A stretch of 64,000 bases of DNA, taken from contig AL929603.2 of assembly GCA_000002445.1 (NCBI GenBank), positions 224,001 through 288,000 on the forward strand, given 5' to 3'. The notes under the pieces are model-generated. The model had not been told where the DNA came from, searched no databases, and saw only the letters and a list, made by a program, of their open reading frames with translations. Below are positions 1-64,000 of the stretch, in pieces (position 1 is the stretch's first letter; each line of letters opens with the position of its first letter). Origin of the DNA: Trypanosoma brucei (lineage: Eukaryota). Position numbers and translations under genes: made by a program.

Positions 1-1475
1 GTGCTCTCCTGGCCATTTTCAGTATTCATTCGTGCCCTTGCTACTTGCAGTGACGACTCTGATACAGTTATGGGTTTACCAGCAGCAGATACAAAAAGCG
101 TTGGAACATCTGTGGAATTTCCTTGTACCGCAGTGCTCTCTTGGCCATTTTCAGTATTCATTCGTGCCCTTGCTACTTGCAGTGACGACTCTGATACAGT
201 TATGGGTTTACCAGCGGCAGATACAAAAAGCGTTGGAACATCTGTGGAATTTCCTTGTACCGCAGTGCTCTCTTGGCCATTTTCAGTATTCATTCGTGCC
301 CTTGCTACTTGCAGTGACGACTCTGATACAGTTATGGGTTTACCAGCGGCAGATACAAAAAGCGTTGGAACATCTGTGGAATTTCCTTGTACCGCAGTGC
401 TCTCTTGGCCATTTTCAGTATTCATTCGTGCCCTTGCTACTTGCAGTGACGACTCTGATACAGTTATGGGTTTACCAGCAGCAGATACAAAAAGCGTTGG
501 AACATCTGTGGAATTTCCTTGTACCGCAGTGCTCTCCTGGCCATTTTCAGTATTCATTCGTGCCCTTGCTACTTGCAGTGACGACTCTGATACAGTTATG
601 GGTTTACCAGCAGCAGATACAAAAAGCGTTGGAACATCTGTGGAATTTCCTTGTACCGCAGTGCTCTCCTGGCCATTTTCAGTATTCATTCGTGCCCTTG
701 CTACTTGCAGTGACGACTCTGATACAGTTATGGGTTTACCAGCGGCAGATACAAAAAGCGTTGGAACATCTGTGGAATTTCCTTGTACCGCAGTGCTCTC
801 TTGGCCATTTTCAGTATTCATTCGTGCCCTTGCTACTTGCAGTGACGACTCTGATACAGTTATGGGTTTACCAGCGGCAGATACAAAAAGCGTTGGAACA
901 TCTGTGGAATTTCCTTGTACCGCAGTGCTCTCTTGGCCATTTTCAGTATTCATTCGTGCCCTTGCTACTTGCAGTGACGACTCTGATACAGTTATGGGCT
1001 TACCAGCAGCAGATACAAAAAGCGTTGGAACATCTGTGGAATTTCCTTGTACCGCAGTGCTCTCTTGGCCATTTTCAGTATTCATTCGTGCCCTTGCTAC
1101 TTGCAGTGACGACTCTGATACAGTTATGGGTTTACCAGCGGCAGATACAAAAAGCGTTGGAACATCTGTGGAATTTCCTTGTACCGCAGTGCTCTCCTGG
1201 CCATTTTCAGTATTCATTCGTGCCCTTGCTACTTGCAGTGACGACTCTGATACAGTTATGGGTTTACCAGCAGCAGATACAAAAAGCGTTGGAACATCTG
1301 TGGAATTTCCTTGTACCGCAGTGCTCTCCTGGCCATTTTCAGTATTCATTCGTGCCCTTGCTACTTGCAGTGACGACTCTGATACAGTTATGGGTTTACC
1401 AGCAGCAGATACAAAAAGCGTTGGAACATCTGTGGAATTTCCTTGTACCGCAGTGCTCTCTTGGCCATTTTCAGT
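1..1475. repeat. 132-bp tandem repeat array, 11 full units plus a 23-bp partial unit, truncated by the window start
   Basis: Units start at 1, 133, 265 and so on to 1453 and are over 97% identical. The few polymorphisms include ccagcagcag versus ccagcggcag and ctctcctgg versus ctctcttgg. The period is a multiple of 3, so frames +1 and +2 stay open across the whole array; the ORF track reports these as 1..1503 and 32..1675. Confidence 0.95.
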
Positions 1476-2020
1476 CCCGTACGTGCGGTCCCTCCTCGGC
1501 TGAATTCTCGTTTCCCTCTCCTGCAGTGGACTTTTTCCTTGTACACTTTCTCCAGACCGACTGCGTTGTCTCTTGGGGGCATCGGAGCGGCACTTCGTAC
1601 GGTTCCGTTGCGGCGTATCGGAATTTTGGCGCGCTCCAGAGTTGCTGCCTTGTCTTCCTTTTTTGTGGCTCATAATAATCAGAATTTGACTTCCGAGCAG
1701 ATTAATTAAACAACACACGGGGAATTTCAGGATGGAAGAAAAGGAGGAGGAGGAGGAGGAGCCGAAAAAGAAGAAAAAGGGGACCGGAATGTAGTGCAAA
1801 CAAAGTACTAAAAGGCATTCAATTGCACGCGTGTGGAGGTGGAGGTGGTGAGAATGAGCGAGCAGAAACGTCGGTGCAAAGGGCACGCACCGGGACAACA
1901 ACGGTATACACTTATGTATACTCAGTATCAACAAGCGCAGATGTGAATATTCGCTTCCGCGACAGCAAACAGTACCGCAGAAAGGGGGAAAAGGGCCCTA
2001 ACAGATGCCCACCTTTCTTG

Positions 2021-15543: not shown

Positions 15544-16377
15544 AGCTCCTTTGAAGCGCTTTCCAACATCGAATCACGAAACAATAAATGCATATACGAG
15601 TGGGACGCACATACGGGGAAAGGACAAGGTGCAAGACAAAACACGTAACCACGGGGAAAATGGATGAAGGCACAGGGCTTTCGTTAAACGGCGACAAGGC
15701 AGGGGCAACCCACTTGTTTCCAGTTGGTTACAAAACGTGATGTATCGAAAATGTGTGTTCATAAAAAATAACAGGGAAAAAGATGTGCGCCCACACATGT
15801 CCGCATCGCCTCCTCCGTCTCTGCGCACAAAATAACAAATCTCTTCTGCCCCACGGTACGCAAATACATTCAGCGCTTTAAGGTAGAACGCACCCCAACG
15901 GCGGCGAATCCCAGTAACATTTCAGCGAGGAACGCACTCGCTCCACAGAGACCGTAACAGAGTTGAAGCTTGTACAAGTTTCCTCATAGGAGAATCAAAA
16001 AAATAAATATATATACGTTCTCAATACCCACAAGAAAAACGAGGCCCCCACAAAAATTAAAGTCTCTGGCGCGTCCAACACATCTTGTTTTCGCAGCATA
16101 ACACAGTCTCTGCAACTCTCAACCGATAACAATAGCAAACTTCCATCAACTTTGTGCGGCTGTAATGACATGACCAGAAAAAAAACTAATGGAAAGAGCA
16201 ATGCGGACGTAGGGGATACAAAGGGGGAACAAGCGCCCAAATAAGATACACGAGCGCACAAGTCAGCAGCGCTCAACACGCTATTTCATCATGGAAATAG
16301 ATCTACCGTGCCAAAGGGAGGTAAGAAATAGTGAAATTGGAAAGCTTCTCCACGCCTCAAGAAAAAAAAAATGCGTC

Positions 16378-52300: not shown

Positions 52301-54186
52301 AAAGAACATAAAGCCGATTTGGCCTTTCCAACATACTCTAGGAAAAACGAAGTCACCTCTTGAATCTTGCAATCCGTTGCCAAGTGGCCAATAAACTCAC
52401 TAACCACAATGCTAATATCACCCTGCTCAAAAGGCTCACTAACATATATCTCGGTAAATTTGGAGCGCAGCGATGGCGGAATATCCTTCTTACCGACGTC
52501 AGTAGGGGGGTTCATGTTTGCAAAAACGTGAAAATTTTTGTGCCTCTTAATTGGTTCGCTTCCAACCTTATCTGTCAGATATAACGCATCAACATCCCCT
52601 AAGACAGCCGAAACTCTTTCCAGTATCTCGGTAGACGCAAGATTCACCTCATCTAAGAGGATCCAGTAACCCTCTCTCCATGCCCTGGTCAAAGACCCTT
52701 CTTCAAAACGAAAGGCAAATGTATTCCTCGTGGTGTGAAGTGTCGCCAACAAATCCTGGGTTACATTCTCGAGATTAAGCCATCGCTCCTGGAGTTCAGT
52801 TGAGAAAGGGTGTTGAATATTCTTCAACTTAAACGAGCTGCATCCCTTAAGAATTTGTCTGACGACGACGAGCCACGAGCACTTTTTCATTGACATCTGG
52901 ACTGCGCTGAGAAATTCTGCATTTCGAGAAGCGTTAAAACATTGCGAAAAAAGATCCACAAAATCCTGATACGCGTTCCTCACAGCAACACCCACGTCGA
53001 GTGGTTTCCAACCTCCCATGAAATCACTTGTATCGGTTTGTTGGTCAAGATTGTGAACAATCAGCTTTTGACCAACCTTGTCGGCAAGATACTGAACGAC
53101 AAATGTTTTTCCAACTCCAGTTTCACCTGTCAAAAGGACATTCTCCTGTGCATCAACAGCGGCTGCTATCCGTTCCAAGAGAGACATGGAATGTTTGGTG
53201 GCTGCAAATACCGCAGTAGTTTTTAGATCGCCACTCAGGCAACCATACAGGGGCAGTGTAACTCGACCAACGGTAAAGTACTCCGCTCCCGATCGCATTT
53301 CCGGTTTGCTCTGGTAAGCAAGCGAATCGGCAACATTCGGCAAAATACCTACACATTCAGCCATAATATTGATGATGCGGATCAATTCATCACATTTTGG
53401 GAAGCCTGCCAACATACAGTCGTATGCTTCACGAAACATCATCTCACGAATTGTGGATGAAATAAATTCGTTGGAGAGGTTGGTGTTGGGAAGCCTCCTG
53501 CTCACTCGTTTGCACCACTTAAGTAACGACCGAAGGGTCACTAGTGAAGTGCCAAACAAACGAGACGGAAGGGTCGTCAGTGCAGAAACTACGCTTCTCG
53601 GAACGGAGTACAACGACGTTGCGACAACACAAATCTCCTCAGGGGGCAAACTTTTTAATACCGTAACCCCCCAAAGTTCACCAAAGGGTACGGAGTTACT
53701 CTTACGCGTCGTAAAAGTGTCACCAACAGATCGCAACTGCTGGGTGGCAATAATTCTGAAATTCGGATGGGCATTGATGCGTTTATTTTTATCCGGCAAA
53801 AATAGTGTAGACTCCTCAAGAAGAGAAAGTAAAACTGAAAAAACATCGAACGATGCTAGATCGATATCTTCCATTAGAATCCACAGACCATTTGCTACCG
53901 CAGTAGTCAGAGGACCTGGTACCCATTCGAACGCTCCGGGCACATCTGTTGCTGAGAACTTCCCAAGCAAGTCCCTGCTATCAAACGAATCGTCGACGTT
54001 TATCTGAATCATTGTACTGTACGCACCACATTCTTCCGCTAAGGCCTTAACAAAAAAACTCTTACCACACCCAACCTCACCTTGAACGAGAACAGCCCGT
54101 GATGTGTCAAGAGTTACCTTAAGGTTTCTGAGGTTCTGTTCGCTCACGGCCGTCAAGATCATTGTCTGCCAACCAAGCATGTACAT
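40384..54186 (-). CDS. MDN1: midasin (MDN1/Rea1-type AAA ATPase), 4,600 aa: six AAA protomers, a linker, a D/E-rich domain and a C-terminal MIDAS/VWA domain
   Basis: Six Walker A motifs occur in order: GEVGCGKS, GETGVGKT, GPTSSGKS, GETGSSKT, GSPGVGKT, GPTGAGKT. A very long Asp/Glu-rich segment lies at ~41.4-43.0 kb. The C-terminal VWA domain carries a MIDAS motif (ILVALDDSLSMQ). Confidence 0.95.
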   Translation of the reverse strand: MYMLGWQTMILTAVSEQNLRNLKVTLDTSRAVLVQGEVGCGKSFFVKALAEECGAYSTMIQINVDDSFDSRDLLGKFSATDVPGAFEWVPGPLTTAVANGLWILMEDIDLASFDVFSVLLSLLEESTLFLPDKNKRINAHPNFRIIATQQLRSVGDTFTTRKSNSVPFGELWGVTVLKSLPPEEICVVATSLYSVPRSVVSALTTLPSRLFGTSLVTLRSLLKWCKRVSRRLPNTNLSNEFISSTIREMMFREAYDCMLAGFPKCDELIRIINIMAECVGILPNVADSLAYQSKPEMRSGAEYFTVGRVTLPLYGCLSGDLKTTAVFAATKHSMSLLERIAAAVDAQENVLLTGETGVGKTFVVQYLADKVGQKLIVHNLDQQTDTSDFMGGWKPLDVGVAVRNAYQDFVDLFSQCFNASRNAEFLSAVQMSMKKCSWLVVVRQILKGCSSFKLKNIQHPFSTELQERWLNLENVTQDLLATLHTTRNTFAFRFEEGSLTRAWREGYWILLDEVNLASTEILERVSAVLGDVDALYLTDKVGSEPIKRHKNFHVFANMNPPTDVGKKDIPPSLRSKFTEIYVSEPFEQGDISIVVSEFIGHLATDCKIQEVTSFFLEYVGKAKSALCSLDGGTKPPTVSLRTLTRALTYVRKATSQYGFALALFDGLMLGFATPLERQFHSIVEQLIKKHVFGNGEPPRPTLPRCPSGGRFVAYEHIWLPVGSEEPRKDESFILTPSVKGHLLNVARAVFADRPVLLEGPTSSGKSSMVKYLAEFTGHKFIRINNHESTEIQEYVGHYISDERGKLRFVDGILVDAVRNGYWIMLDELNLAPTEVLEALNRLLDDNHELFVADTQETIKPHPHLRIFATQNPAGVYGGRKLLSRAFRNRFLEITVDDIPNTELCTILCQRYSLSPSFAEKMVEVMTTLQIRRQGSRVFAGRHGFVTPRDLFRWAERCPGTYQEMAEHGFLLLVERCRKTEERQIVKDVIESITKTELNEGDIYSPHHWPYVAEHYKHVESRVAEEFGIVWTESMLRLFTVVGICLFHREPVLLVGETGSSKTTVCQVWAAILQRRLSIVNCHQHSEAADFLGSLRPALPNQQSSAIFQWRNGPLVECMLKGGVFVLDEISLAEDSVLERLNSVLEPGRTVTLAEKSTADVIFAHEDFRILATMNPGGDFGKRELSPALRNRFTEIYVRPTVEREEVTLILSKRLNQNLSHWAAHMASLLCDAASVCSVAGVPQHISIRDIIGWVSFMNAADGHCDEQVSFVHGLDAVILDGVGVGTGQSDMGTHGLREALIAKVREVCKVSSDCLREPFWELFDTLEEPTLPPEMKGRFFFGAPSTSRNLSKLVRAGIMRRAILLEGSPGVGKTSIVEALGCALRKHVVRVNLSEQTDIMDLFGTFLPCPSSGDSGGPQFSWSDGVLLHALKNGWWVILDELNLASQSVLEGLNALLDHRSTVFIPELGEEFQAADGFRVFACQNPLAEGGGRKGLPRSFLNRFTRVRIEPFDVEDLMRIVVAVAPGIGEATLCKMVGFVDELHREVVVRRAFGVRGSPWEFNLRDILRWAKLMEAYGVMDMPCEFVDMLFTQRMRTDTDRKRTVELVEKIFGSSAMCGLTFQESHFLIANDAVHFGSRFLTRRVQGSNPFIDTAYNSLMLLPSQAGVVRSLLTCAEQNQLCILAGPTGAGKTFCIRAAAALAGARLLTFSMNASCDTVDLLGGFDQVEGKQGQFEWSDSLILEAMQSGHWLVLDNVNYCNASVLDRLNPLVEPNGMLSVNEQGLVDGQVRVVRPHPNFRLFMTLDPKYGEVSRAMRNRAVEIYVHPVEIPSLESLAISGASTSCRSVEHLEMLNRYHREFLRSLFSADSALPMSTQLSDALASGTPNTFTLVKTASMLSAASNLEDLKMFIRHKYIDNRCGHWNVRKDEVATNLDMLVAAGESDACRCFPSVADLLSALSVTGSSEGSGSALESVEEALVRIRVLRSGLALRAQLTAEGSHQKCHSLSDLVLYFVLDQCADGVLSHILFESRRQLLCWTIGDALSEQGMNDVLSLISLQPTTDAAAHLDSIWCSSAPVLGPHASSLKALRDANIFISDSPVVNNSFNRVLSAMGKVVEVLSSPSLQQRIFRLLGPLARLVCSSFPQYQINVDNYVSLLTNVLLIRSVIKKQLGSTADIFFGAVDEFLSSLRNYLGLPFQLVLEGLNIRKRIVRPHITTAEERAALVAWKASATSALHEKHECLLKSLWDSAIFRAEFSLVLRAQQLRANCSVPVAKRLQCEVLEFVNIYCTKLRVVPQLNVTLWREVTTIPLVVERDAAALSSLVPLLTTNFLSRYGLNGGRHILCGSWTSLASDALDYAAEVSVAAIDSKSNPHVRALDNLLEFCRVLPMPKVDPFEEWEANCLTDALSLLEMCQVPHRALNTNGFSVPEEPSTAMLVQLLSKLRTLLAETQGNPLIDALRPVLSMIVHSNDFTPDDSLRRIALVGVLRCRMLVPRTPIDPMYKWLVKREVARNELVYFSRLDAAFSWSEELSMRGSCSRQRLLLQGLQAEEEAHLARALEKVVVRPDSTGAKFAQLVDLLHQTCSSMLSDSRLEVVVAQRRSETAAARKAWSEVVYQQFIDVLDNYGGYEDVTLTVSEPALSATLAAYIGYYMQTRPVRKSMIFSVPDAVRMMHFPSTSINSPVLPSSGSQSLQQRLAYLDSCLLLVQCTPARVIKRDFVEKLFDSYRELYRAVEELEAKERSEQELSVLYKEKAVIIEGDDEAHMGLLKQLFPSYEEEFIRARDAEDDKMEDATNDEVDLNPAPKPEVSALSTGRHARLMLSGPQGAKYMQRLLDTHYHFFESLLELNDGGAFCGDRHLEAFKGVFDVVSKELRGWGCSGVYEDGSLVRAEDEQMMAGGFAARATLLSKCLFSSETPLSEAKAIKFNIFTDPAPSELRAFNPSLLSLMQAITELSAAYPDTPSLRRCSRIATCLAALPVLTTPLMKVMTGCEILLRECYEWERNASRDTSIMDHMTHLSTFVLRWRRLELHCWGQVFAAKREEWELKVGKVWFSLCDLTGVQQPIPMEELQDRYAKFFHYCMDFMWGARCGDFHARLRLLKAFAFHLAAAGRRSSFPLANASCHLTDFFTQYSQLVEQKLRIALSPIEEDMEEFTRIMRWEDSTYYAVRATAEKSHLKMGRGLASLEDVLRMPVLQIISTEEQRCEDDQAMGFTLASLQLEEKNGKKNKKQGAQGAVDIGLKRSRMGRINAKAKTAVSGCEAPPGGEDADSAEGKLPGYMSEGVEFLKFAANEIIERVNALQARSVPQNQKLRALKTLFTVMEEKGVPHTHALQVSGWEELFATSSALLPCRNIHKHLVASKRIEEAAQEYYRGVRWLQRMRDAEKHPHKDLSDAQVKRGAGTAESLFAVAVQEAELIGNFCEVHQQIALLRDFISTCEDRAVPTGAEQLHASMEMCVQLQSFVYDVRWMLQEHIFDLEGSRSTIDELYCLTEELWKLCCTTEGQRRAEIPIADAIMEQYGALYGRVRLVCSRLCSTGVGCVDSASSKLCESLDLLGESINCAVTASMPTRAVSAKRNRTEVGAQWEGKVTVMVESLESAFAKNDGLTDFFASSPGHQQKEENSTGGGGTDLVYRRYAETVGKLLAEARTAHSSLHTLLHDETHDRKISSAARTQLLSRLDVCVEHVGLLLQGATRALLAQSHLTLVVSRLLCILFRKGFCKSEEEEEEDGDGDGESGDGNQLDGTGMDDGQGEKDVTDQIENEDQLMSAKDKNDEEQEEKQQDKGDGSSDGEDNAADVETDFAAPKERRDDDDEEDEDDGDESEREMGSVDGEEVQERKRMKKETNEGNDLDSDDGGNADDVPEDELANEEESIDGNEGDQETANFENREAAIREAEEQQQGEDHDLAADVLEGGENDSHDGGDGDGESNTCSDEGEREGSEGDDDDNAGDSDDEAHNGSGEASSVLSDNARDIEGEDNGKDDNEGEGTCDSGDFCEDKEDDWADENVYNGGQQDEHAGEEATEEREKESKKRPRAAQQEAGTTEEQQPGEEEQQDEAGRNWKRQNRDERTQHRDNAERHNTSRNPYRAIKEAVERHQRSVQQLNLNKRVEVKKHREADNQQQNEQQSNRKEVVDEFEFDEEGEEEGMAATDEKPVVPTEATNNLPEQREVADPFSESGTSEELDEGNDEDTPPRHRKHAVEVSVDTESSEEEGDEEDAEKKKARRHVKVASKIRNDNEEEEDSFDDDDKTADSTGGGEYDKLCRGRELWQEQTAAVHTLSHQLCEQLRLILSPTVADKLQGDYKTGKRLNMKRIIPYIASQFKKDRIWLRRTKPNKRSYQILVALDDSLSMQCNNAGIMSCRAVALIAEALQQLEVGELGIACFGKETRIVHEMHEPFVAESGPRAFSEITFAQKSTNLKLLLETTLDYLDDARRRMNGQIRSSTQRLQQMMFIISDGQITEDRMELRKLLMRAEENHQMVVFVLLDVKASGGENDNNGAAPLAPISAKELAGMTPAQRMRRLKAERDSRLQRVKSNSVLDMQLVEFRDGSVVRRSYMEEFPFPHYLIVRELETLPSAIADALRQWFELLNVQH

Positions 54187-54430: not shown

Positions 54431-55201
54431 CTACTTCCTTTCGCGTGTACGCTGCAACCGGCTACTCCTTGTTGGCCCACCTCTTTGGGAAGCAATTTGT
54501 GTTTCACCACAATTACTTCGTGCAGCAAATTTCATTATTTCCTCCAGCTTGGAACGATTTGGATAGTGTTGCTTAGTTTGGCCACTTTTCAGAAACCTTA
54601 CATAACTCGATATATTCATTTCGTATTCGAGAAAGGACGCAAGATTCATCGCTGTTGTTTTGTCATGAGTGGCAACGCGATCAAAAAACGGTAACATAAT
54701 TTCTTTTGGCGCTGTCACACCAGCTGCAAAGAAAACGGCCATCACCTTCATGGATATGCACGGGCAGCTCACAGTTTTCAACTTATCGTACAAAAATTCC
54801 TCACCAGCGAGGGGTCCGTCAGCAACGTCGATGAATACGCGAAATGGAATGTTCTCAACGCTGTGTGGTGGTTGTGATTCACATGTCTTTGCATTCATCG
54901 AATAACGGTTCCTGGTGGATGCGCTTGTCTGCTCCGTCGGCATCAGCTTTGGTAGTGAGGAAACACGCGATACTTCTGTATAACAACAACCAATAGGCCT
55001 CGTCTTGCAGAACGCTCCGTCAGGGACATCAACAGAAAAAGACAAACCATGCGCATCAAACCCTTCAAGGAAACCAATAGCGGCAACGAGCATATTAAAT
55101 AAGGCACCTTGGGGTACTTTCAAGGTCAAAAGCCCCGTAACAGCCGCGTACTTAAAACGAGCAAGAGACCTCTGGCCACAGATTGCAACTGTCCGATTCA
55201 T
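54431..55201 (-). CDS. hypothetical protein, 256 aa, first gene of the minus-strand unit (or a detached midasin N-terminal domain, see findings)
   Basis: Minus-strand ORF 245 bp upstream of the midasin start, in a different frame. No recognisable motif. Confidence 0.45.
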   Translation of the reverse strand: MNRTVAICGQRSLARFKYAAVTGLLTLKVPQGALFNMLVAAIGFLEGFDAHGLSFSVDVPDGAFCKTRPIGCCYTEVSRVSSLPKLMPTEQTSASTRNRYSMNAKTCESQPPHSVENIPFRVFIDVADGPLAGEEFLYDKLKTVSCPCISMKVMAVFFAAGVTAPKEIMLPFFDRVATHDKTTAMNLASFLEYEMNISSYVRFLKSGQTKQHYPNRSKLEEIMKFAARSNCGETQIASQRGGPTRSSRLQRTRERK

Positions 55202-58200
55202 CCAACCATCCCAAAGGCTTAAAGAACTTCAATGGGGAAAATAGGAAAAGATATACAGTAAGAAGTGAGCTTTGAATACATAAATAACAGGCCAAAATAC
55301 AGATGCAGCCCCATACCGTATAAATGGGGGGAAACAAAAGAACAACTGGTATACCCCAGCAAATACAAGACATTTGTGGTGGGAAAAGAACGCTGAAATA
55401 GGTACAACCAGGTCCGGTTGCCATTTCTACGGAAAGTCTGTATTCAGCGCATCCGCGGGGTGATCTAACAAACAATCTCACACGTACACGCACTGATGGA
55501 TCGGTAGATAGTGTAGACTTCCACTCCAAAATAGTAAAATGAATTTAATTTTCATCGTCATAAAGAAACACTAAACATATCACTCAAAATAACAACAATT
55601 TTCATGCTTCAGCGCGGCTCGTGGTTACAAGACGCCGTGCACCGGTCAGATCTAGGTGGCATCATTTCATTACGCAATTACCATTCATACAAACTACGAG
55701 GCAAAAGAAGCGAAAGAAAACAAACTTTCCACTAGCAGCTATCACGGTAGTAACGTAACGCATTGATCTCCCTCTTGCTTTATTTAAAAAAAAAACAGAA
55801 ACGCTGAGGACTTCTACGGGAATCTAACGTCCGGTAAAACGTCTCTACGACACTGTCATTTCTGTCACTCCAATGATCACTAGCACACGCCTATGCTTTT
55901 TCGCGGCGAGTTCAACAATTTATCCGCACTTGATACGACAAAAAAACAGATGGGGGTAGATGCACCGGGAGATTTACGCTCCTCAATGACACTTACGAAA
56001 GCAGAAACAAGCAAAAATGTGATATTTACACTAGAAAAAAGTTCATTCGGGATGGTGGTCTGCTTTTCGAAGTAGCTATAACCGGCAAAAGCAGCAATAA
56101 AGAGCTGAAAAGACTGATGGGGCCCGTCAACCGGTGACATCAGTAAGGAATATTATTACCCCCCGCCTCTTCTCTCCCCCTCGAGCGGTCCAAACTTTCG
56201 CATTAACACGAGGTAACACCATATGTAACGACTCGAATAACATTTGCTCCTTTCTCGCACTGACCAGCAGATCATACAAAAAACGTTAAAACGGCGAACC
56301 ACGTACATATATCGCACCAACTTCTCAACACAGCAGTTGCAATCCCACTTCACATACAGAAACAAAGAGAAAGTGTACAACCTACGCGACGTCAGAAGAT
56401 CCGATAGCGACCCTCGGCATGGTCCACACACTACCTGCGGTCACACATGCCAATAAAAAAACCCGCTGAGTATTTATTATCACTAAAGGGGGAATGCAGA
56501 TCACAGCGTAAAAATACGTTAGTAGTGGGGAAAGCCCGGGAACATATACAGTTACCGATGTTCAGCAAAGGGCGCGGGAAGCTGTCCTCCTTTGATTCGT
56601 CTAGTTTCGAGCCATTTAACGAGAAAAGCAATCTCCAGAGGCAGCACCAAACACTCTCAAGGGCACCGAAACCAGGAACACATCTCCCAGAAACAATACA
56701 CAAACCTTTAAGACAGACCCCCTAGAGAAACGCCCACAGTGCAACACCACACCATGGAACCGGGTAGAACAACCTTAAGTCCGCTTCCGCACCCCCATTC
56801 AGCTGTCACGTGCTGGTGGTCGATCCAAAGCTCTCCTTGGATCATCCTGCTGGCTCACCCACCGTAGTCGTACAGGTTCCTGTTCTCTTCCGATGGAGGT
56901 GCCACAAAAATATGGCTTCCACGGACACAAAAGACGCTATTTCAGTCTACACAGCTAAGAAATCAGGTATTATCTAAACTGCAGTCAACTAGATCACACC
57001 TCGGCGGAGCAGGAGGACCAACGAACCCGTCTTCTTGGTTGGGGTATTTCTCAACGATGGCGGATGCCAGCCTCTCCACGACTCCTCACCCTTTCTTTCT
57101 CTTTCCTAAAAGTGCTGGAGGTAACTTCAGTTCCATCTCGCCACTGAGCACCTTCCTCCTCGAGCTTACCGATCCGTGTTTCTCCCTCAGAATCTAGAAC
57201 CCGTCGGGCTCGAGTGGTACCAAACCGTACCTACCACCCAACATTTTAATTCGCGGCGGGCACTCCTCTCATCTCACTCCCCATCCCCCCATGGCCGCAG
57301 GCATCGGACATGCACCTCGTGGAGGAAATCTCACCAACGCAAGCCACATCGCAGCCCCTGCACTGCCGGACTCCGACGCCGGCTTCCGCTCCTTGACCCC
57401 AACATCGAGCAGCCGCCACGGAACGCGACTGGCCCCAAAGTACACTGGCATCGTCTGCAGCGCGAATAGGTTCGAGCTCCCGCTAAGTTTATCAAACTCG
57501 ACACACTCCACCGAGCCATGTACGGTAGCCGGCTTCAACTGCACCCCAGTTCCTGCAACCCTCCCCCCTCCATCCATGAGCCTTCTCACCCATAGCACCT
57601 CGTTCCTGTTCGGTTGAACTACCCTCCGTGGACAAGGCACCCCATGCCACCGCCAATAATTCTTTCAACGGCACTATGGGATCAAGCGCAGGCTTAAAGC
57701 TGCTGCACATCGCCATCGTCCTTGCCAAGAGCGCCCTCTTACACGCCAGGTTGTTAAACTTCCCACCGACGACCCATTTAACTTCATTGTCATTCCACCG
57801 CCCTGCTTTCGGGCTAGTTGTTGCCCGTAATCACACAATGCAAACTACGATCGCGCTATAGTCACCCTTTAGCGCCACCACTACCGCAGCATTGCTGTCG
57901 CCAAGACACCGGTGAACCTCTATTTTCGTTGCAATCGCTGTGATTCATCTTGGTTCTGCCCCTTCCACACGAAGTCGGGTACACGCATATCCTTTGTAAC
58001 CCTTCTCCGCCCCCAAAAATTTCGCCGAGAACCGTGCTTATGTTCCTCGTAGTGTTGGTGTTCCCTTTTTATGACGAATAGGAGGACACCGGCACCACGG
58101 TAAATATATTTGTTTTTTCTTCGCACCCGATGCTACTCGGCTTCCGCTGAATTTGGTACACATGCCGGCTGAAGTTGACGCCTGTATTTATTTGTCGTTG

Positions 58201-61200
58201 GGTTCAAATTCTAATTTTGCGCAGGTCTCCATTTTTAGCACTTAACCCCCTCAAGCCCTCGCCTCACTGCTCCTGTAACACCGACGCCATTTACACCGTG
58301 GCGATCACAGCCTACTCTGTTTTTTTTTTTTACACGCCACGACAGCTTGCTACCATGTGTTTCCCATCCCACCGCCCCCGTTACCCATCTCACTGGTGCC
58401 AGAGACTCACGTTCTCAATACAACGCCCTATCATTACGTTCTTCATTTCCCGTATTTGAAAGATTTGCGACGGTTGGTGCGGGCCATCTTCCACTCAAAG
58501 GAAACTCACATAGTTGTCGTTTCTGTCTCTCTGTGACGGCAATTGTTCTTTTCTATGCATCTACTCCACACTGTTATCACATCGGTCCACTTAATTCCAC
58601 CATACCTGAGTGGTTGGCGCCTCCCGTCCCATGTCATACTGTAATGCGTTTTTGGCCGCAAGGGGCGTTAGGTTCTATAGATTCGATCTCTGTCAGCAGT
58701 CTGTCCTTCATCCCTCTCATTTTGTATCACGCACGCACTCGGTACGTGCACCCCTTCAGATTTGCTCGCCTGTTCGTTGGAACGATGAGACCTATTGAAC
58801 AATTTTGTGCATATGCACTGCTGGGGGGGGGGGGGGTTCCTCGATGCTCCTACTCACCTGAGAAGCGGCTTGTCGATCTTATTTTTGTCGTGCAGTCTCG
58901 TAAATAGCGTTTCCTTACCGCATACTTCATTGTCGCCCACCTCGGATAAAACCAGATTTATTCTTAGCACATTGCGGAGTACCACCGCCTCTCCCACAGG
59001 AGCGGAGCTTATTCTGCTTTGAACGTCCTCACGACACGTGGAGAGGTGCAACCCCACAAACGCTTTGTTTTAACTTCAACCTCCCCCCCGTTTCGTATCC
59101 CTGCTCTTGCACTTTGCCACCCAACGATGACACCTGAAGTGTTTCGTTGCGGCCATGCGAAACCAAGGCGGAAGAAATCTCTTCTATAGGTGTCGCATGC
59201 TTCCATCTACATGTAAAAGGGAAAACGACAGAAAGGAGGTCTCCAGCTCGTGTTGGTTTCATTGACTGTGCTATAGTAAGCACGTCCCCGATTTCTCCAC
59301 TTCCGTGAAATATACAGTAAATATGAGTAATACACTCAGGTTACATTGGTGGTGGATCGTTCCCCTTGTCGGCCATCTTGGAAGTGATTTCGCTTAACTC
59401 TGAGCACGGGAGTCGGGGGCGCACTGCACCGATATCAACATATTCCTACCAGCGAGTCCAGGCATCACTTTCCCCATTTGACAACACAGAATACCGAGTC
59501 CTACGCATGCAAGGCTTATATTTAAAGCAACGAAACATGCTGTGAAGTTGGTAAGTGCCATTTCCCCACTCTATGATTCATTTTCTCAGACATTTTGAAC
59601 CTAGTATTCATTGCAACACTCTTTTATTCGTAACGGGGCATCAACATATCGGTTTCCCCACATTCCCCGGTCATGCTCTCTCTGTCAAATGCGCGGGATC
59701 TGTGAAAGAGCGTGCGCCTCCCCATGTGAGTCATAACCACAACTCTGATGGTGATCAGTTGTACGCTTTTCCACTCTTTTCATCTTATGCATCATCCCTC
59801 AGCGTACTCACTTGAGAAGCTCGTGTGCGCGCTCTTTTGGTCAGACGTAGTGCGTCTGCCTTGCACGGGGTGGGGTCATCGCAGTTCTCCTCGCCCTTTT
59901 ACCAGACGACAAGAGTGACAGATCTCATTAGGATAGGGTGACCTTGACAACGTAGCCATCCCACGGTCACTACGGGTGTTCCACAATTGGCTTTTAACAT
60001 TTATAGGTAACCAACTCCGCGCCTACAAAACATTCGCACAACAGTGGTATGCCGCTCATCCTTCGCCACACCTTTGTTTCACGGCCCAGTCAAACAGTCG
60101 TTTCGATGATACCCCCCTTAACTTGTACGTTCGCAACCGCGCTTATACCAGCAGAGGGTAGAGAACTATGAGAGGTTTATTCCTGAGAACACTTCGTTTG
60201 TACAACCCTGAGGTGGAACGAGTGGGCCGCATCGCTCCTCTGGCCTTGTCGCTACGAAGGAACCGTTTTCAGCCCCAGAAATCACGGCCGCGGTGTTTCA
60301 CATACTCCATTCGCACGCTCGAAGGTGTCATTCATCGGTTAGGCCGTTAGCCCCTATTGTTTTGAACTTGTGCTTTCACCTTGATGGGCTTCACTGATCG
60401 CAGTTGTCAGGCCGCCCGTAAAATGCCCCCCCAAAAGGTGCAAACCCTGCTTTTTCGCAGCTGACTGCTGAGGGTTCGAAGGATAACCATCGTAACCACA
60501 GCGTTCCTTCCCTTCTGCAGATTCTTCTCTCTTCCTTCTCATCATTTTGTTGTTTAAAGAAAGTTGTGTTGAGGTTGGAGCCTGTATCTTCAGACGTTAG
60601 TTACAAAGGGGACTCACTACAGTTTTTGGCTGTGTGCGTTATCAACTGAAGTGCTCTTGCTGGGGGAGTGATTCATCTAAGTGGGCCTCTCTCGATTATC
60701 ATACAAGAACGAATGTCTGTTGGAAGATGAGCGAATTTTTCACACTAGTTTCGCGAATCTCTTGTATAATCTTGTTGGGATCCACTCTGTGAAGGGTTTC
60801 GGAATAGACAAATAAGAGGCCGAAGACGTTCCGAAGCTTCTGGGACATTCAGCGGCTCTTCGGTCGTCATATGTTCTCGCAGTTTTCTCTCTCTATCACC
60901 TTTGAGATGGTGAGTGTGGTACGGGGAGGAGGCGGGACAGGATTTAACCCTTCAGATATATTCAGAGTTATGGAGTAATTGCGCATCTTCTCCCCCGGTG
61001 CGATGTGATTCTCACACCAAGTTTGTCGTCAAGAAGGGTTGGGAATTAGGAACTACTGGGGGTTCTCAAGAGTCTTAGCACGAATTTATGCTGTTCGTTT
61101 TCAACAGGAACTAACCCTTTTCCATTATCTTATTCCAGTAGTGTTTTTACCCTTCGGTATACCCGCAGTACGTGTTTGTAGCGTTTTGATGGCATCGTGG

Positions 61201-64000
61201 CGCAGGCCATCACTAACTGGTGCGTGGAATGGTGTTGCCTCGTTGTTCTGTTTCCAAATCCGGCGGTCGCTGCCTGGAAGCACTGTACTAAACTCGGCCG
61301 CTGACGTTTCAGGCCGTTTTTATTGGATATACTCATTTTGTAACGTTTCTCTTGACACCGTTGGAGTCGAGCACCGCCATATAAAGACGTTCGCCTCTGT
61401 GCTGCAGGGCGTTTCCGCTCAATATTACTTGCGGAAGCATCCGTCTCATTCTCCATTTTGGCCAACCCCATTGTCACGGAACAAGGGTCCCCGATATTGT
61501 TCTACCCACCGGGCTGCGGCGGGCGGTCCATCATGAATGACTGTTGCAGCTGTGCGTCGGTACGGCTGTGGGTATTTCTCTAGTCCTTAGTATTTCCAAG
61601 TTTCTCCTGTGTGATGAGTTTCGGCTTCCCCAAGTTATCGTGTTTCCACGGATATGATTCTCTTAAGGATATTTGCAGTGAAATTGGTGGCTCTTCGGAG
61701 TTGCGGCACACACCAAAACAGTAAATAACGTTGTGTGGCGTTCATTGTCCTTAGTGGCCCGTGGCACTCGGTTTGCAACAGGGTAGTTCCATTAGCAAGT
61801 TGTGTCGCGTACAACGCCAGCTTTTTTTTTTTTTTGATGAATATTGCGGTGGGGGTTCCCCACCACGTTTTTTGTCGTTGCAGATACCAAGCGCGTGCCA
61901 ATAAAGTGCAGAATCTCTGTCGTCAACTGAGGGGACGGGCTTAGCGCACACCAAGGGGTAGGTGTCGTCCGGTCGTCCCGCGATAACTTTTTTGGGGCGC
62001 AGGGAAGCGGCCGGATGTGAATGTGGGACGGGGAAACTGCACTGTGTGCCGTGACGTGCGGATAAGTTTTTGCGGCGAAACGCCGCAACGTAAGTACTAT
62101 CGCCGTGTGTTCAAGAAAGAGGATGGACATTCCTCGTCTCTTTGAGTCACAGCCGGCAGCCGGTTGCTCTTGTGATGGGTGGATGGAGCCAAACTGCCCC
62201 CTGCGGGGGCGGAGGGCAACCTTTTTCCCCAACTGGTGAATCAACGGTTGACGTACAGTTCGGTGGAGATAACCCAACAGCATTCCGGTTTCTGGCACGC
62301 GGGAAGGGCTTAGGGTTCGTATCAACATCACTTTGCGGGGTAGTTAAGGGCATGTGATGCTGGCGATGTCGGGTCCATATGTGACTGGGGCTCTTCCAAG
62401 GGTGCTGCCTGTCCAGTTGCGGGGTCGCTCTTCACCCAGTGGTGGGTTAATGGAGCAGCCTCCTCTGCCTGACCTAATCTTAAGGGTGTATGCTACATGC
62501 GCTCGGTGTGTCCCCCCTGAACGATGTCGTAGGGTCTGCTGCCGTCTTGGAGCGGCCGTCGTCATGGAGGCAGGTGGGCGTGCTGAGAGTTTGGACAACT
62601 GGTATTCTTCGAGTGTAGCGACTCGATCGTTGTCGGGAGTGACTCCTTAACTACTGGTTTGTGGTTACAGTGCTGAAGTTTTCGTTGACAGGAAGGTTTT
62701 GGTTTTTGCCACCACAAGGTGTTTCCGTATTTCATTATCCAGAGTATATCAAAGGAAGTTTTTGAGGGATCATGGTCGCCGCGTTGGATTTTATTGCTTG
62801 AAAACGTTGCTGTCCTTTGGTGGTTTCCTCTTTCTTATACGGTCCTTCGTTGTGTGGAAGGCCACCCGTGCTAGGAGTGGATCATTGGCTTCTTTTCTAT
62901 GATTTGCGACACGTAGGTACGTGTATGCGCTTAGGGTTGTTTGTCTGTTTGTTGACTCCCTGGTTATTTGGACTGAATCACTGTTGAATCTTATCAACTC
63001 CTTTCTCGGTGCCATGCGGGTGAGGGGCATAGAAAGCAGTGCAGAGGCACTGCTTCTTGTACCTGCTTTTTTTCCAATTCTAGATTTTATTTTTTTAAAC
63101 ATCACCTTTGATAATTAGTGAGCACCTTTATACCCTGTTAAGTTGTTGCCGTGCTTATTGTCATTGGCGGCTTGTTTGTGTGTGGGGTGACAGCTACCAC
63201 ATTTTTTTTCTTTAGCGGTAGCTCCTTCTGTTTTTTTCACGTGATGATGTGCCTACGGTTTCATTTGTTCTTTCTATTCATAGAGTCTGCGCAAAGATGC
63301 CCTCTGTTGGTTGCATTGTTGACATCTACTATTGTGATTCTTAGTCGGAAATCGACGCCAAACACGTCGTCTTGATTACAGTTCTACCGCTGTTGTGATA
63401 CCTGTGGTTTGAGCAATTAACAAACGTGATTTAGGCATGCGGCCCCCTTTGGGACAAAAATTTCTCCAGCGTTGCCCAACTTTTGGTTGTTGTAGGTTTT
63501 TTGTTTCGCATCTGATGTCGTACTAAGCCGTACTAGTGATAAAATGTGCTGCGGACTACACCCGATTGCATTTTGTCTAGTGTTTATACCTCCTAAGGAG
63601 TGCGGATACTGTGAGTGATATTTCTTATCGTTTGAAACACGGCGAGTAAAGGATGAACACGGGGCCGTACTTTTTTCTCTTTTTGCCCGAGTTGATGGGT
63701 AGCAGAAGGTTGGATGAGGGGTGCCCATGAATTCCCGGCACGTGTGATTCTCTCCCCTTTGTTAATCCCACTACGCTGATACATCCGTACCTGACTGCAT
63801 ACTCACACCAACTCAAGTATGCAGGGCGGCGTGGCTCAGTGGGCATGAGGAGGCGATGAATTTGTTTTGTGCTGTTGGGCCTCCTTTGGAAGGAGCGTGC
63901 TCTGAGTTTGGCTTAGGTTGCTGCGTATAAAGTTGCTACTGGTTCTGATATTTTTCACATTTAGCGCTGCATTAGGGTTAGGGGGACAGTGATGGGTGGG
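55202..64000. promoter_or_regulatory. putative divergent strand-switch region / Pol II transcription start region; window ends inside it
   Basis: Across ~8.8 kb no ORF shows coding-like composition. The plus strand is C/A-rich at ~56.6-58.0 kb and G/T-rich from ~58.2 kb onward. A G12 run sits at 58826-58837. It lies directly upstream of the first minus-strand gene. Confidence 0.55.

What the first reader, a model, noticed from the sequence alone, without database searches (positions are those of the whole stretch)
55202..64000. About 9 kb coding-free region upstream of the minus-strand unit with a strand-composition switch and G12 run: likely divergent transcription-start region
Twenty consecutive genes share one strand and end here. 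Beyond 55.2 kb every ORF is short with non-coding-like composition. Left of ~58 kb the plus strand is C/A-rich, so it is G/T-rich on the strand of the leftward unit. Right of ~58.2 kb the plus strand itself becomes G/T-rich; examples are 60.54-60.66 kb and 62.64-63.30 kb, with T-runs at 58320 and 61820. This mirror-image skew fits the GT-rich promoter elements reported for trypanosome Pol II start regions, with a putative rightward unit beginning beyond the window. A G12 homopolymer (58826-58837) sits near the switch point. G-runs have been noted at trypanosome transcription start sites.
Basis: partly seen in the sequence, partly recalled or inferred. Interest (0 to 1): 0.55.

Follow-up and report, generated by a model that had tools for sequence, protein, structure and literature searches.

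The report
Known trypanosome divergent transcription-start region

Summary
The window is T. brucei TREU927 chromosome 1, bases 224,001-288,000. I fixed this offset from published splice-site coordinates and an identical protein.

**What is there**
- The region from 55,202 to the window end has no detectable gene. It has no Pfam domain in six frames, no Rfam or tRNA hit, no repeats, intergenic-like codon scores, and twice the SNP density of coding sequence.
- The next gene, Tb927.1.990 (Enkurin domain), is on the plus strand and starts about 582 nt beyond the window. Further plus-strand genes follow it.

**Prior record**
- Kolev et al. 2010 (Table S14) already list Tb927.1.890→.530 (-) and Tb927.1.990→.2000 (+) as a divergent RNA polymerase II start pair.

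**Corrections to the finding**
- The G-run is G14 at 58,823-58,836, not G12.
- The skew switch has two steps. A/T flips near 57.0 kb and G/C near 60.5 kb, with a GT/AC-neutral (keto-skew) 2.5 kb zone between.
- The GT-richness of the arms (±0.17) equals that of ordinary intergenic DNA inside the gene array. It marks transcription direction, not specifically a promoter.
- A spliced non-coding transcript, Tb1.NT.20, starts at 63,496.

**Mildly new**
- The same divergent junction is only 0.6-3 kb in four other Trypanosoma species.

The parts
54431..55201 (-). Tb927.1.890, a 256-aa conserved hypothetical gene and the first gene of the leftward polycistronic unit.
   Evidence: The ORF appears and is identical to the TREU927 protein P0003. 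It is listed as the first ORF of the minus-strand 'Divergent' unit in Kolev 2010 Table S14. Orthologues occupy the same position in T. vivax, T. cruzi, T. melophagium and T. grayi.
55217..55269 (-). Spliced-leader acceptor sites of Tb927.1.890. The major site is at 55,226 (108 tags, 25-nt 5'UTR).
   Evidence: The sites come from Kolev 2010 Table S4, chromosome coordinates 279,217, 279,226 and 279,269. An AG dinucleotide sits at the expected position in the window sequence, and a pyrimidine tract lies upstream on the minus strand.
55202..58033 (-). Left arm of the strand-switch region. It is A/C-rich on the plus strand, so G/T-rich on the sense strand of the leftward unit. I infer it to be the leftward transcription start region.
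   Evidence: Keto skew is -0.170. Wedel 10-mers on the minus strand cluster at or below 56,494. The start-region role is inferred from Kolev Table S14, not measured at base resolution.
56750..58000 (.). G+C-rich patch (GC 0.52-0.60) that is strongly C-rich on the plus strand. It contains the annotated 'unlikely' ORF Tb927.1.900 (57,269-57,577).
   Evidence: Composition is. This is the only SSR stretch whose codon score reaches the low end of the CDS range (0.11 and 0.09). The ORF has no homologue outside T. brucei among 1.84 billion representatives, no Pfam match, and no transcript in Kolev Table S2.
58034..60500 (.). Central zone that is keto-neutral and pyrimidine-rich on the plus strand. 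It lies between the A/T-skew flip (~57.0 kb) and the G/C-skew flip (~60.5 kb). I infer it to be the region between the two start regions, or a zone where they overlap.
   Evidence: Keto skew is +0.004, GC skew about -0.15 and TA skew about +0.14. Its role is inferred.
58320..58331 (+). T12 homopolymer (T14 in T. b. gambiense).
58823..58836 (+). G14 homopolymer on the sense strand of the rightward unit, about 0.8 kb right of the skew minimum (G13 in T. b. gambiense).
   Evidence: Position and length are. G10 is the top sense-strand 10-mer in the 5'-most fifth of T. brucei start regions (Wedel 2017 Dataset EV1).
60501..64000 (+). Right arm, G/T-rich on the plus strand. I infer it to be the rightward transcription start region. 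It continues about 580 nt beyond the window to the ATG of Tb927.1.990.
   Evidence: Keto skew is +0.179. In the strand-switch region (beyond 55,202), 22 of 23 plus-strand Wedel 10-mer hits lie at or beyond 58,110. Tb927.1.990 is the first ORF of the plus-strand 'Divergent' unit.
61822..61835 (+). T14 homopolymer.
63496..64000 (+). 5' part of Tb1.NT.20, a 960-nt trans-spliced and polyadenylated transcript with no annotated ORF. It is the first processed RNA of the rightward unit and ends at about window position 64,456.
   Evidence: Kolev 2010 Tables S4, S5 and S7 give splice acceptors at 287,496 and 287,528 and poly(A) sites at 287,685 and 288,437-288,456. AG dinucleotides sit at 63,494-63,495 and 63,526-63,527 in the window.

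Best explanation
This is the divergent strand-switch region of T. brucei chromosome 1 between Tb927.1.890 (leftward unit, running to Tb927.1.530) and Tb927.1.990 (rightward unit, running to Tb927.1.2000).

- **Function.** It is a gene-free, dispersed RNA polymerase II start region from which two polycistronic units are transcribed away from each other.
- **Processing (shown by published data).** The first RNA processing signals are the spliced-leader acceptors at 55,226 (minus strand) and at 63,496/63,528 and ~64,568 (plus strand).
- **Initiation (inferred).** Initiation occurs somewhere in the ~8.2 kb between those acceptors, on each arm's G/T-rich sense strand. By analogy with other T. brucei start regions, the DNA would lie in an H2A.Z/H2B.V/H4K10ac chromatin domain.
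- **G14 (inferred).** The G14 at 58,823 would sit at the upstream edge of the rightward start region.
- **Skew.** The compositional skew reflects transcription direction, either as its cause or as its result. It is not unique to promoters.
For: **Identity of the window**
- The window is TREU927 chromosome 1 with an offset of 224,000. Published splice sites land on AG dinucleotides, the annotated 'unlikely' ORF coordinates match ORFs in the window, and the 256-aa protein is identical to the TREU927 protein.

**Direct published evidence**
- Kolev 2010 Table S14 lists both flanking units as 'Divergent'.
- Their text states that 5'-triphosphate reads were enriched 'at every divergent transcription unit', at the sites marked by variant histones.

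**Flanking genes diverge**
- Twenty minus-strand ORFs lie to the left.
- To the right come the Enkurin-domain gene, a PDK-like kinase, a ZZ-domain gene and LRR genes, all on the plus strand.

**No gene in between**
- No Pfam match in six frames.
- No Rfam match even at E<=1, and no tRNA.
- No tandem or dispersed repeats.
- Codon score is intergenic-like.
- The best candidate ORF has no homologues.
- No peptide is conserved with the orthologous regions.
- SNP density is 9-14 per kb against 4 per kb in CDS, with indels present.

**Composition**
- The skew is mirror-image, with its minimum at 58,033.
- The same junction, with the same mirror skew, is present in T. vivax, T. cruzi, T. melophagium and T. 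grayi; a similar midasin-Enkurin junction with mirror skew occurs in Phytomonas.
- The position and strand of G14 fit Wedel Dataset EV1.
Against: - I did not see ChIP-seq or 5'-triphosphate read profiles for this locus. The published listing gives units, not start coordinates, so the positions of the start sites and of the chromatin domain are inferred.
- The GT skew of the arms equals that of ordinary intergenic DNA within the unit (-0.169).
- The density of Wedel's enriched 10-mers is no higher here than in internal intergenic regions. Sequence alone therefore does not single out promoter elements.
- The leftward unit has no G-run longer than 7.
- The central 2.5 kb has no assigned role.
Confidence: 0.93

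Rival explanations
1. The region acts mainly, or additionally, as a DNA replication origin: an ORC1/CDC6-bound strand-switch region flanked by poly(dA)/poly(dT) tracts. Its unusual length would serve replication rather than transcription.
For: From general knowledge, T. brucei ORC1/CDC6 sites and mapped origins lie at the boundaries of transcription units. [quoted passage not shown] The region has A10 at 55,786 and T12/T14 at 58,320 and 61,822.
Against: I saw no origin-mapping data for this locus. A- and T-runs of this size occur throughout the window (24 A-runs and 8 T-runs of at least 8 nt). An origin role would add to the documented transcription-start role rather than replace it.
Confidence: 0.15
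2. Most of the 9.4 kb is decayed sequence, meaning relics of lost genes or of a mobile element inserted in the T. brucei lineage. It would have no function of its own, and only the edges would matter for transcription.
For: The orthologous junction is only 582-2,958 nt in T. grayi, T. melophagium, T. cruzi and T. vivax, so 6-9 kb was gained in the T. brucei lineage or lost elsewhere. The GC-rich patch at 57.0-57.9 kb reaches the low end of coding-like codon scores. SNP and indel density suggests relaxed constraint. A 354-nt segment is structurally polymorphic between subspecies.
Against: No reverse transcriptase, endonuclease, RHS, VSG or any other Pfam domain appears in six frames at E<=0.1. 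There is no repeat or similarity to the other 55 kb of the window. The candidate ORF has no homologue. The whole length carries an ordered, strand-specific skew, which random decayed inserts would not be expected to show unless they had long been transcribed.
Confidence: 0.1
3. The minus-strand unit continues through the region, as the original annotation implied with nine minus-strand ORFs (Tb927.1.900-980). The true switch would then lie at about 64 kb.
For: GeneDB v4 annotated nine minus-strand 'hypothetical unlikely' ORFs from 57,269 to 64,091.
Against: None of the nine produced a detectable transcript (Kolev Table S2). Their codon scores are non-coding. From 60.5 kb onward the plus strand carries the sense-type skew. 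A plus-strand spliced transcript starts at 63,496. No minus-strand splice acceptor was mapped between 55,269 and the window end.
Confidence: 0.02
4. The region is a centromere or a Pol I/Pol III locus.
For: From general knowledge, T. brucei centromeres also sit at strand-switch regions.
Against: There are no tandem repeats. There is no rRNA, tRNA, snRNA or any other Rfam match. There are no retroelement domains. GC is 0.49, so the region is not AT-rich.
Confidence: 0.01

Closest known systems
Divergent strand-switch regions / Pol II transcription start regions of T. brucei (Siegel et al. 2009; Kolev et al. 2010; Wedel et al. 2017)
   Same: - It sits between two divergent polycistronic units and contains no genes.
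- Its size matches the 5-10 kb start domains described for T. brucei.
- The sense strand of each arm is G/T-rich.
- A long G-run lies on the sense strand at the upstream edge of one arm.
- This exact locus is listed in Kolev Table S14.
   Different: Nothing essential differs. Only one arm has a G-run of at least 10. The A/T and G/C skews flip 3.5 kb apart.
Leishmania major chromosome 1 strand-switch region (Martinez-Calvillo et al. 2003; McDonagh et al. 2000, as cited)
   Same: It shows bidirectional Pol II initiation within a single gene-free region between divergent units, and a G-over-C and T-over-A sense-strand skew.
   Different: From my own knowledge, the L. major chromosome 1 region is about 1.6 kb with start sites clustered in under 100 bp near C-tracts. 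The T. brucei region is 9.4 kb, and initiation in this species is reported as dispersed.
Orthologous junction in other trypanosomatids (T. vivax L004, T. cruzi L005/L006, T. melophagium L007, T. grayi L008, Phytomonas L009)
   Same: The four Trypanosoma species share the flanking genes: midasin and a ~256-aa gene on one strand, and Enkurin, kinase, ZZ and LRR genes on the other. All five show the same mirror-image keto skew.
   Different: - The length is 582-2,958 nt against 9,380 nt in T. brucei.
- There is no primary sequence or peptide similarity.
- None has a G-run except a G9 in Phytomonas.
- In Phytomonas a 255-aa gene next to Enkurin is on the plus strand.
Mammalian CpG-island / dispersed bidirectional promoters
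   Same: They show broad, motif-poor initiation, bidirectional output, H2A.Z-marked chromatin and GC skew downstream of the start. Kolev 2010 and Wedel 2017 draw this analogy.
   Different: The trypanosome region drives polycistronic units of tens of genes with no gene-specific regulation. The transcripts are matured by trans-splicing.

Membership tests
Trypanosomatid divergent strand-switch region / Pol II transcription start region | Flanked by two polycistronic gene arrays on opposite strands that point away from each other. | tested here: met
   Twenty minus-strand ORFs end at 55,201. Plus-strand Enkurin, kinase, ZZ and LRR genes start about 582 nt beyond the window in near-identical loci. 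Kolev Table S14 lists both units.
Trypanosomatid divergent strand-switch region / Pol II transcription start region | No protein-coding or structural RNA gene between the two first genes. | tested here: met
   No Pfam match in six frames. No Rfam match. No tRNA. Codon score is intergenic-like. No homologues. No conserved peptides. Nine annotated 'unlikely' ORFs have no transcript. One spliced non-coding transcript, Tb1.NT.20, lies at the right edge.
Trypanosomatid divergent strand-switch region / Pol II transcription start region | G/T excess on the sense strand of each arm, giving a mirror-image skew. | tested here: met
   Keto skew is -0.170 on the left and +0.179 on the right, with the minimum at 58,033. 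The magnitude equals ordinary intra-unit intergenic DNA (-0.169), so this feature is necessary but not specific.
Trypanosomatid divergent strand-switch region / Pol II transcription start region | Long G-run on the sense strand in the 5'-most part of the start region (Wedel 2017 Dataset EV1). | tested here: inconclusive
   The feature is met for the rightward unit, with G14 at 58,823-58,836 on the plus strand. It is not met for the leftward unit, where the longest C-run on the plus strand is 7. Five other G or C runs of at least 9 lie inside the unit.
Trypanosomatid divergent strand-switch region / Pol II transcription start region | 5'-triphosphate (primary) transcripts arising on both strands. 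| not testable with these tools
   Read data are not available here. The published summary (Kolev 2010 Table S14 and text) classes this locus as divergent start sites.
Trypanosomatid divergent strand-switch region / Pol II transcription start region | Enrichment of H2A.Z, H2B.V, H4K10ac and BDF3 chromatin. | not testable with these tools
   This is reported for T. brucei start regions in general (Siegel 2009, as cited). I did not see locus-level data.
T. brucei centromere | AT-rich tandem repeat array with flanking retroelements or rRNA genes. | tested here: not met
   There are no tandem repeats. GC is 0.49. There are no retroelement domains and no rRNA.
Retrotransposon or pseudogene relic (ingi/RIME/DIRE, RHS, VSG) | Recognisable reverse transcriptase, endonuclease, RHS or VSG domain remnants, or repeated copies. 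| tested here: not met
   The six-frame Pfam scan returns nothing at E<=0.1. There is no similarity to the rest of the window. A whole-genome copy search could not be run.

The most novel reading that the evidence does not exclude
The same ancestral divergent junction is 0.6-3 kb in T. grayi, T. melophagium, T. cruzi and T. vivax, but is 9.4 kb of unique non-coding sequence in the T. brucei group.

Within the T. brucei region, the A/T skew flips about 3.5 kb to the left of the G/C skew. In that interval the plus strand is T-rich, which is sense-like for the rightward unit. The minus strand is G-rich, which is sense-like for the leftward unit.

The most novel reading is that T. brucei evolved, at this locus and perhaps generally, an expanded start region. 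Its two divergent initiation zones would overlap by several kilobases rather than abut. G-richness and T-richness would then be separable signatures of the two transcription directions.
Probability: 0.15. Interest if true: 0.35.

Novelty: already known. Interest (0 to 1): 0.12.

Why it matters
The result shows that a reader working from sequence alone can locate a trypanosome Pol II start region from strand composition and ORF depletion. It also gives base-level landmarks for one well-defined divergent region: splice acceptors, a G14 tract and two separate skew flips.

The biology is textbook for T. brucei, and this locus is already in a published catalogue. The finding therefore opens no new question. 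Two minor points could feed a genome-wide comparison: the lineage-specific expansion, and the fact that GT-richness here is no greater than in ordinary intergenic DNA.

Tried and rejected
- **Hidden protein-coding genes or pseudogenes.** I ran a codon log-likelihood scan. I ran an exhaustive HMMER search with the only ORF scoring marginally coding-like, 57,269-57,640 on the minus strand. I ran tblastn of all 263 stop-free peptides against the orthologous regions. All were negative.
- **Structural RNAs.** Rfam at gathering threshold and at E<=1, plus ARAGORN, found none.
- **Repeats or mobile elements.** TRF, the repeat finder, and blastn against the rest of the window and against other species' loci found only homopolymer-seeded chance matches.
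- **Promoter 10-mers.** Wedel's 157 enriched 10-mers partition by strand as expected, but they are no denser here than in internal intergenic regions. I rejected them as specific evidence.
- **G-quadruplex motifs.** One lies on the minus strand at 58,363-58,386, which is no more than elsewhere in the window.
- **Sequence-specific promoter of Cordon-Obras et al. 2022.** The paper is not held, so I could not scan for its motif.
- **Siegel et al. 2009.** The paper is not held. I take its statements from citing papers and from my own knowledge.
- **Exact-protein look-ups.** Look-ups of the window's 256-aa protein and of TREU927 P0003 found no contig on record. I therefore used T. b. gambiense and T. 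equiperdum loci to extend past the window end.
- **Replication-origin data for this locus.** I found none in the library.

Full report
**Identity of the window**

The last minus-strand ORF (54,431-55,201, 256 aa) is 99% identical to a T. b. gambiense hypothetical protein. It is identical to the TREU927 protein XP_001218792 (P0003).

Published splice-site coordinates from Kolev et al. 2010 (PMC2936537) fit the window exactly with an offset of 224,000:
- The major spliced-leader acceptor of Tb927.1.890 at 279,226 (5'UTR 25 nt) puts the ATG at 279,201, which is window position 55,201.
- AG dinucleotides sit exactly upstream of window positions 55,226, 55,217, 63,496 and 63,528.
- The coordinates of nine annotated 'hypothetical unlikely' ORFs (Tb927.1.900-980) coincide with ORFs listed in the window.

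The window is therefore T. brucei brucei TREU927 chromosome 1, 224,001-288,000. The three tandem ORFs at 8.5-13.3 kb correspond to Tb927.1.700-720, which from my own knowledge are the PGK C/B/A genes. The 4,600-aa ORF is the AAA_5-rich midasin-like Tb927.1.880.

**Check of the observation**

- Twenty minus-strand ORFs of at least 150 aa run from 2,021 to 55,201.
- To the right, the longest ORFs are 186, 179 and 165 aa.
- Keto skew is -0.170 over 55,202-58,033 and +0.179 over 60,501-64,000. Equal-sized windows in the gene array range from -0.162 to +0.021.
- T12 at 58,320 and T14 at 61,822 are present.

Three details differ from the finding:
- The G-run is 14 long, at 58,823-58,836.
- The switch has two steps. 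TA skew turns at about 57,025 and GC skew at about 60,543. Between them lies a 2.5-kb zone (58,034-60,500) that is keto-neutral (+0.004) and pyrimidine-rich on the plus strand.
- The right edge is not silent (see 'Direct published evidence' below).

**Is the region coding-free?**

Every test says yes:
- All six reading frames, with stops masked, gave no Pfam family at E<=0.1.
- A codon log-odds score trained on the window's own genes gives 0.141±0.071 for coding windows, -0.020 for intergenic windows inside the array and -0.035 for the region.
- Only two windows, in a GC-rich patch at 57.3-57.9 kb, reach the bottom of the coding range.
- The ORF in that patch (Tb927.1.900) has no homologue outside T. 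brucei among 1.84 billion representative proteins.
- Rfam finds nothing at gathering threshold or at E<=1, and there are no tRNAs.
- There are no tandem repeats, no meaningful dispersed or inverted repeats, and no similarity to the other 55 kb of the window.
- Against T. b. gambiense, the region carries 9-14 SNPs per kb plus indels. The midasin and Tb927.1.890 coding sequences carry 4 per kb and no indels.

**What lies to the right**

The gambiense locus (L001, 99.3% identical) extends 1,434 nt beyond the window. It shows a plus-strand ORF (MSGENIKNLL...) with an Enkurin domain, starting about 580 nt past the window end. The published TREU927 coordinates put its ATG at 288,582, which is window position 64,582.

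In T. equiperdum the Enkurin gene is followed on the same strand by a PDK-like kinase, a ZZ-domain protein and LRR proteins. The ATG-to-ATG distance across the switch is 9,380 nt.

**Direct published evidence**

Kolev et al. [quoted passage not shown]
- Tb927.1.890 to Tb927.1.530 on the minus strand.
- Tb927.1.990 to Tb927.1.2000 on the plus strand.

The paper states that 5'-triphosphate RNA reads were enriched 'at every divergent transcription unit'. It adds that these sites coincide with sites marked by modified and variant histones.

Other tables from the same study bear on the region:
- Table S2 lists all nine minus-strand 'unlikely' ORFs in the region as producing no transcript.
- Tables S4, S5 and S7 define a novel trans-spliced, polyadenylated plus-strand transcript, Tb1.NT.20. 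It runs from 287,496 to 288,456 (960 nt, 0.49 RNAs per cell). It therefore starts at window 63,496 and is the first processed RNA of the rightward unit.
- No minus-strand acceptor was mapped between 55,269 and the window end.

**The promoter-element part of the interpretation**

Wedel et al. 2017 (PMC5579346) report that 10-mers enriched on the sense strand of start regions are mostly long G or T stretches, and that GT-rich synthetic elements drive directional transcription and H2A.Z deposition. In their Dataset EV1, GGGGGGGGGG is by far the top 10-mer. It has 132 counts on the sense strand of the 5'-most fifth of 199 start regions, against 17 on the antisense strand.

The G14 here is on the plus strand, 0.8 kb to the right of the skew minimum. 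That places it on the sense strand at the upstream edge of the rightward arm, which fits. It is retained as G13 in gambiense.

The sequence evidence is weaker than it looks, for four reasons:
- Ordinary intergenic DNA inside the minus-strand array has a keto skew of -0.169, the same magnitude as the arms.
- Wedel's 157 10-mers partition by strand in the region. In the strand-switch region (beyond 55,202), 22 of 23 plus-strand hits lie at or beyond 58,110, and most minus-strand hits lie at or below 56,494. Yet they are no denser than in internal intergenic stretches.
- Five other G or C runs of at least 9 lie inside the array.
- The leftward arm has no G-run above 7 on its sense strand.

The skew is therefore good evidence for the direction of transcription and for the position of the switch. 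It is not, by itself, evidence of specific promoter elements.

**Comparative context**

Orthologues of the Enkurin gene led to syntenic loci in five other species. In the four Trypanosoma species the arrangement is midasin and a ~256-aa gene on one strand, then Enkurin, kinase, ZZ and LRR genes on the other. The junction is therefore ancestral to Trypanosoma. Phytomonas keeps the midasin/Enkurin divergence, but a 255-aa gene lies on the Enkurin strand.

| Species | Gap length (nt) |
|---|---|
| T. grayi | 582 |
| T. melophagium | 825 |
| T. cruzi | 1,250 |
| Phytomonas | 1,668 |
| T. vivax | 2,958 |
| T. b. gambiense | 9,146 |
| T. brucei TREU927 | 9,380 |

- Every one of these gaps shows the same mirror-image keto skew.
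- None shares primary sequence or peptides with the T. brucei region beyond T-runs.
- The GC-skew minimum lies to the right of the TA-skew minimum in five of six species. The offset is 34-157 nt in four of them, and 3,518 nt in T. brucei.
- A 9-10 kb start domain matches what is reported for T. brucei: H2A.Z over about 10 kb, and promoter regions of 5-10 kb. About 5 kb is reported for H2B.V in T. cruzi.

**Mechanism**

Shown by published data:
- The two flanking units are separate, divergent Pol II units.
- Their first splice acceptors are at 55,226 (minus strand) and at 63,496/63,528 and 64,568 (plus strand).

Inferred:
- Pol II initiates dispersedly within the ~8.2 kb between these sites, leftward in the 55.2-58 kb arm and rightward from about the G14 onward.
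- This happens within variant-histone chromatin.
- The 58.0-60.5 kb core either separates the two start zones or is a zone where they overlap.

**Rivals**

- An origin-of-replication role is possible in addition to the start-region role, but I could not test it.
- A 'decayed insert' origin for the extra 6-9 kb is not excluded. It has no positive evidence beyond the lineage-specific length and a structurally polymorphic 354-nt segment.
- Continuous minus-strand transcription, a centromere, and a Pol I or Pol III locus are all contradicted by the data above.

**Verdict**

The feature is an already catalogued, ordinary divergent start region of T. brucei chromosome 1.

Noticed in passing
window 63972-63985: TTAGGGTTAGGGGG, two tandem copies of the telomere-type hexamer, lies inside the non-coding transcript Tb1.NT.20. 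It is conserved in T. b. gambiense and T. equiperdum. A given 12-mer is expected about 0.008 times by chance in 64 kb.
   Followed up: partly
window 60937-61290; L001 and L002 equivalents: This 354-nt segment is replaced by an unrelated ~110 nt in T. b. gambiense. In the T. equiperdum assembly it is preceded by an N-gap, a 648-nt unrelated insert and a ~100-nt duplication. It is either a structural polymorphism inside the strand-switch region or an assembly artefact.
   Followed up: partly
window 54165-54186: The major spliced-leader acceptor of the midasin-like gene Tb927.1.880 (138 tags) lies 21 nt inside the annotated ORF. The annotated ATG at 54,186 therefore cannot be the start codon. Kolev 2010 lists the gene among those with misannotated starts.
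   Followed up: no
window 57025-60543: The A/T skew and the G/C skew change sign 3.5 kb apart. In between, the plus strand is rich in both C and T. In orthologous junctions of other species the offset is at most a few hundred bases. I have no explanation for this.
   Followed up: partly
L004 7043-10000, L006 8751-10000, L007 9176-10000, L008 9419-10000, L009 7324-8991: The same divergent junction is conserved across Trypanosoma, with a variant in Phytomonas, but it is 3- to 16-fold shorter than in T. brucei (582-2,958 nt against 9,380 nt). It shares no sequence with the T. brucei region.
   Followed up: yes
window 24966, 30309, 29678, 37004, 39774: Long G or C homopolymers (G11, G10, C10, C9, C10) lie in intergenic regions inside the minus-strand gene array. 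Kolev 2010 lists no internal start site in this unit.
   Followed up: no
window 58823-58836, 58320-58331, 55786-55795: Homopolymer lengths differ between subspecies. TREU927 has G14, T12 and A10, whereas T. b. gambiense has G13, T14 and an interrupted A19.
   Followed up: partly
window 1-1675: Two long plus-strand ORFs (500 and 547 aa) overlap in different frames. They are antisense to Tb927.1.640, whose minus-strand splice acceptor maps to window position 1,689. This suggests a repetitive or compositionally biased gene that runs off the left end of the window.
   Followed up: no
window 16159-16187 (chr1 240,159-240,187): Another published novel transcript, Tb1.NT.19 (521 nt, minus strand), lies between Tb927.1.730 and Tb927.1.740 inside the gene array.
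   Followed up: no
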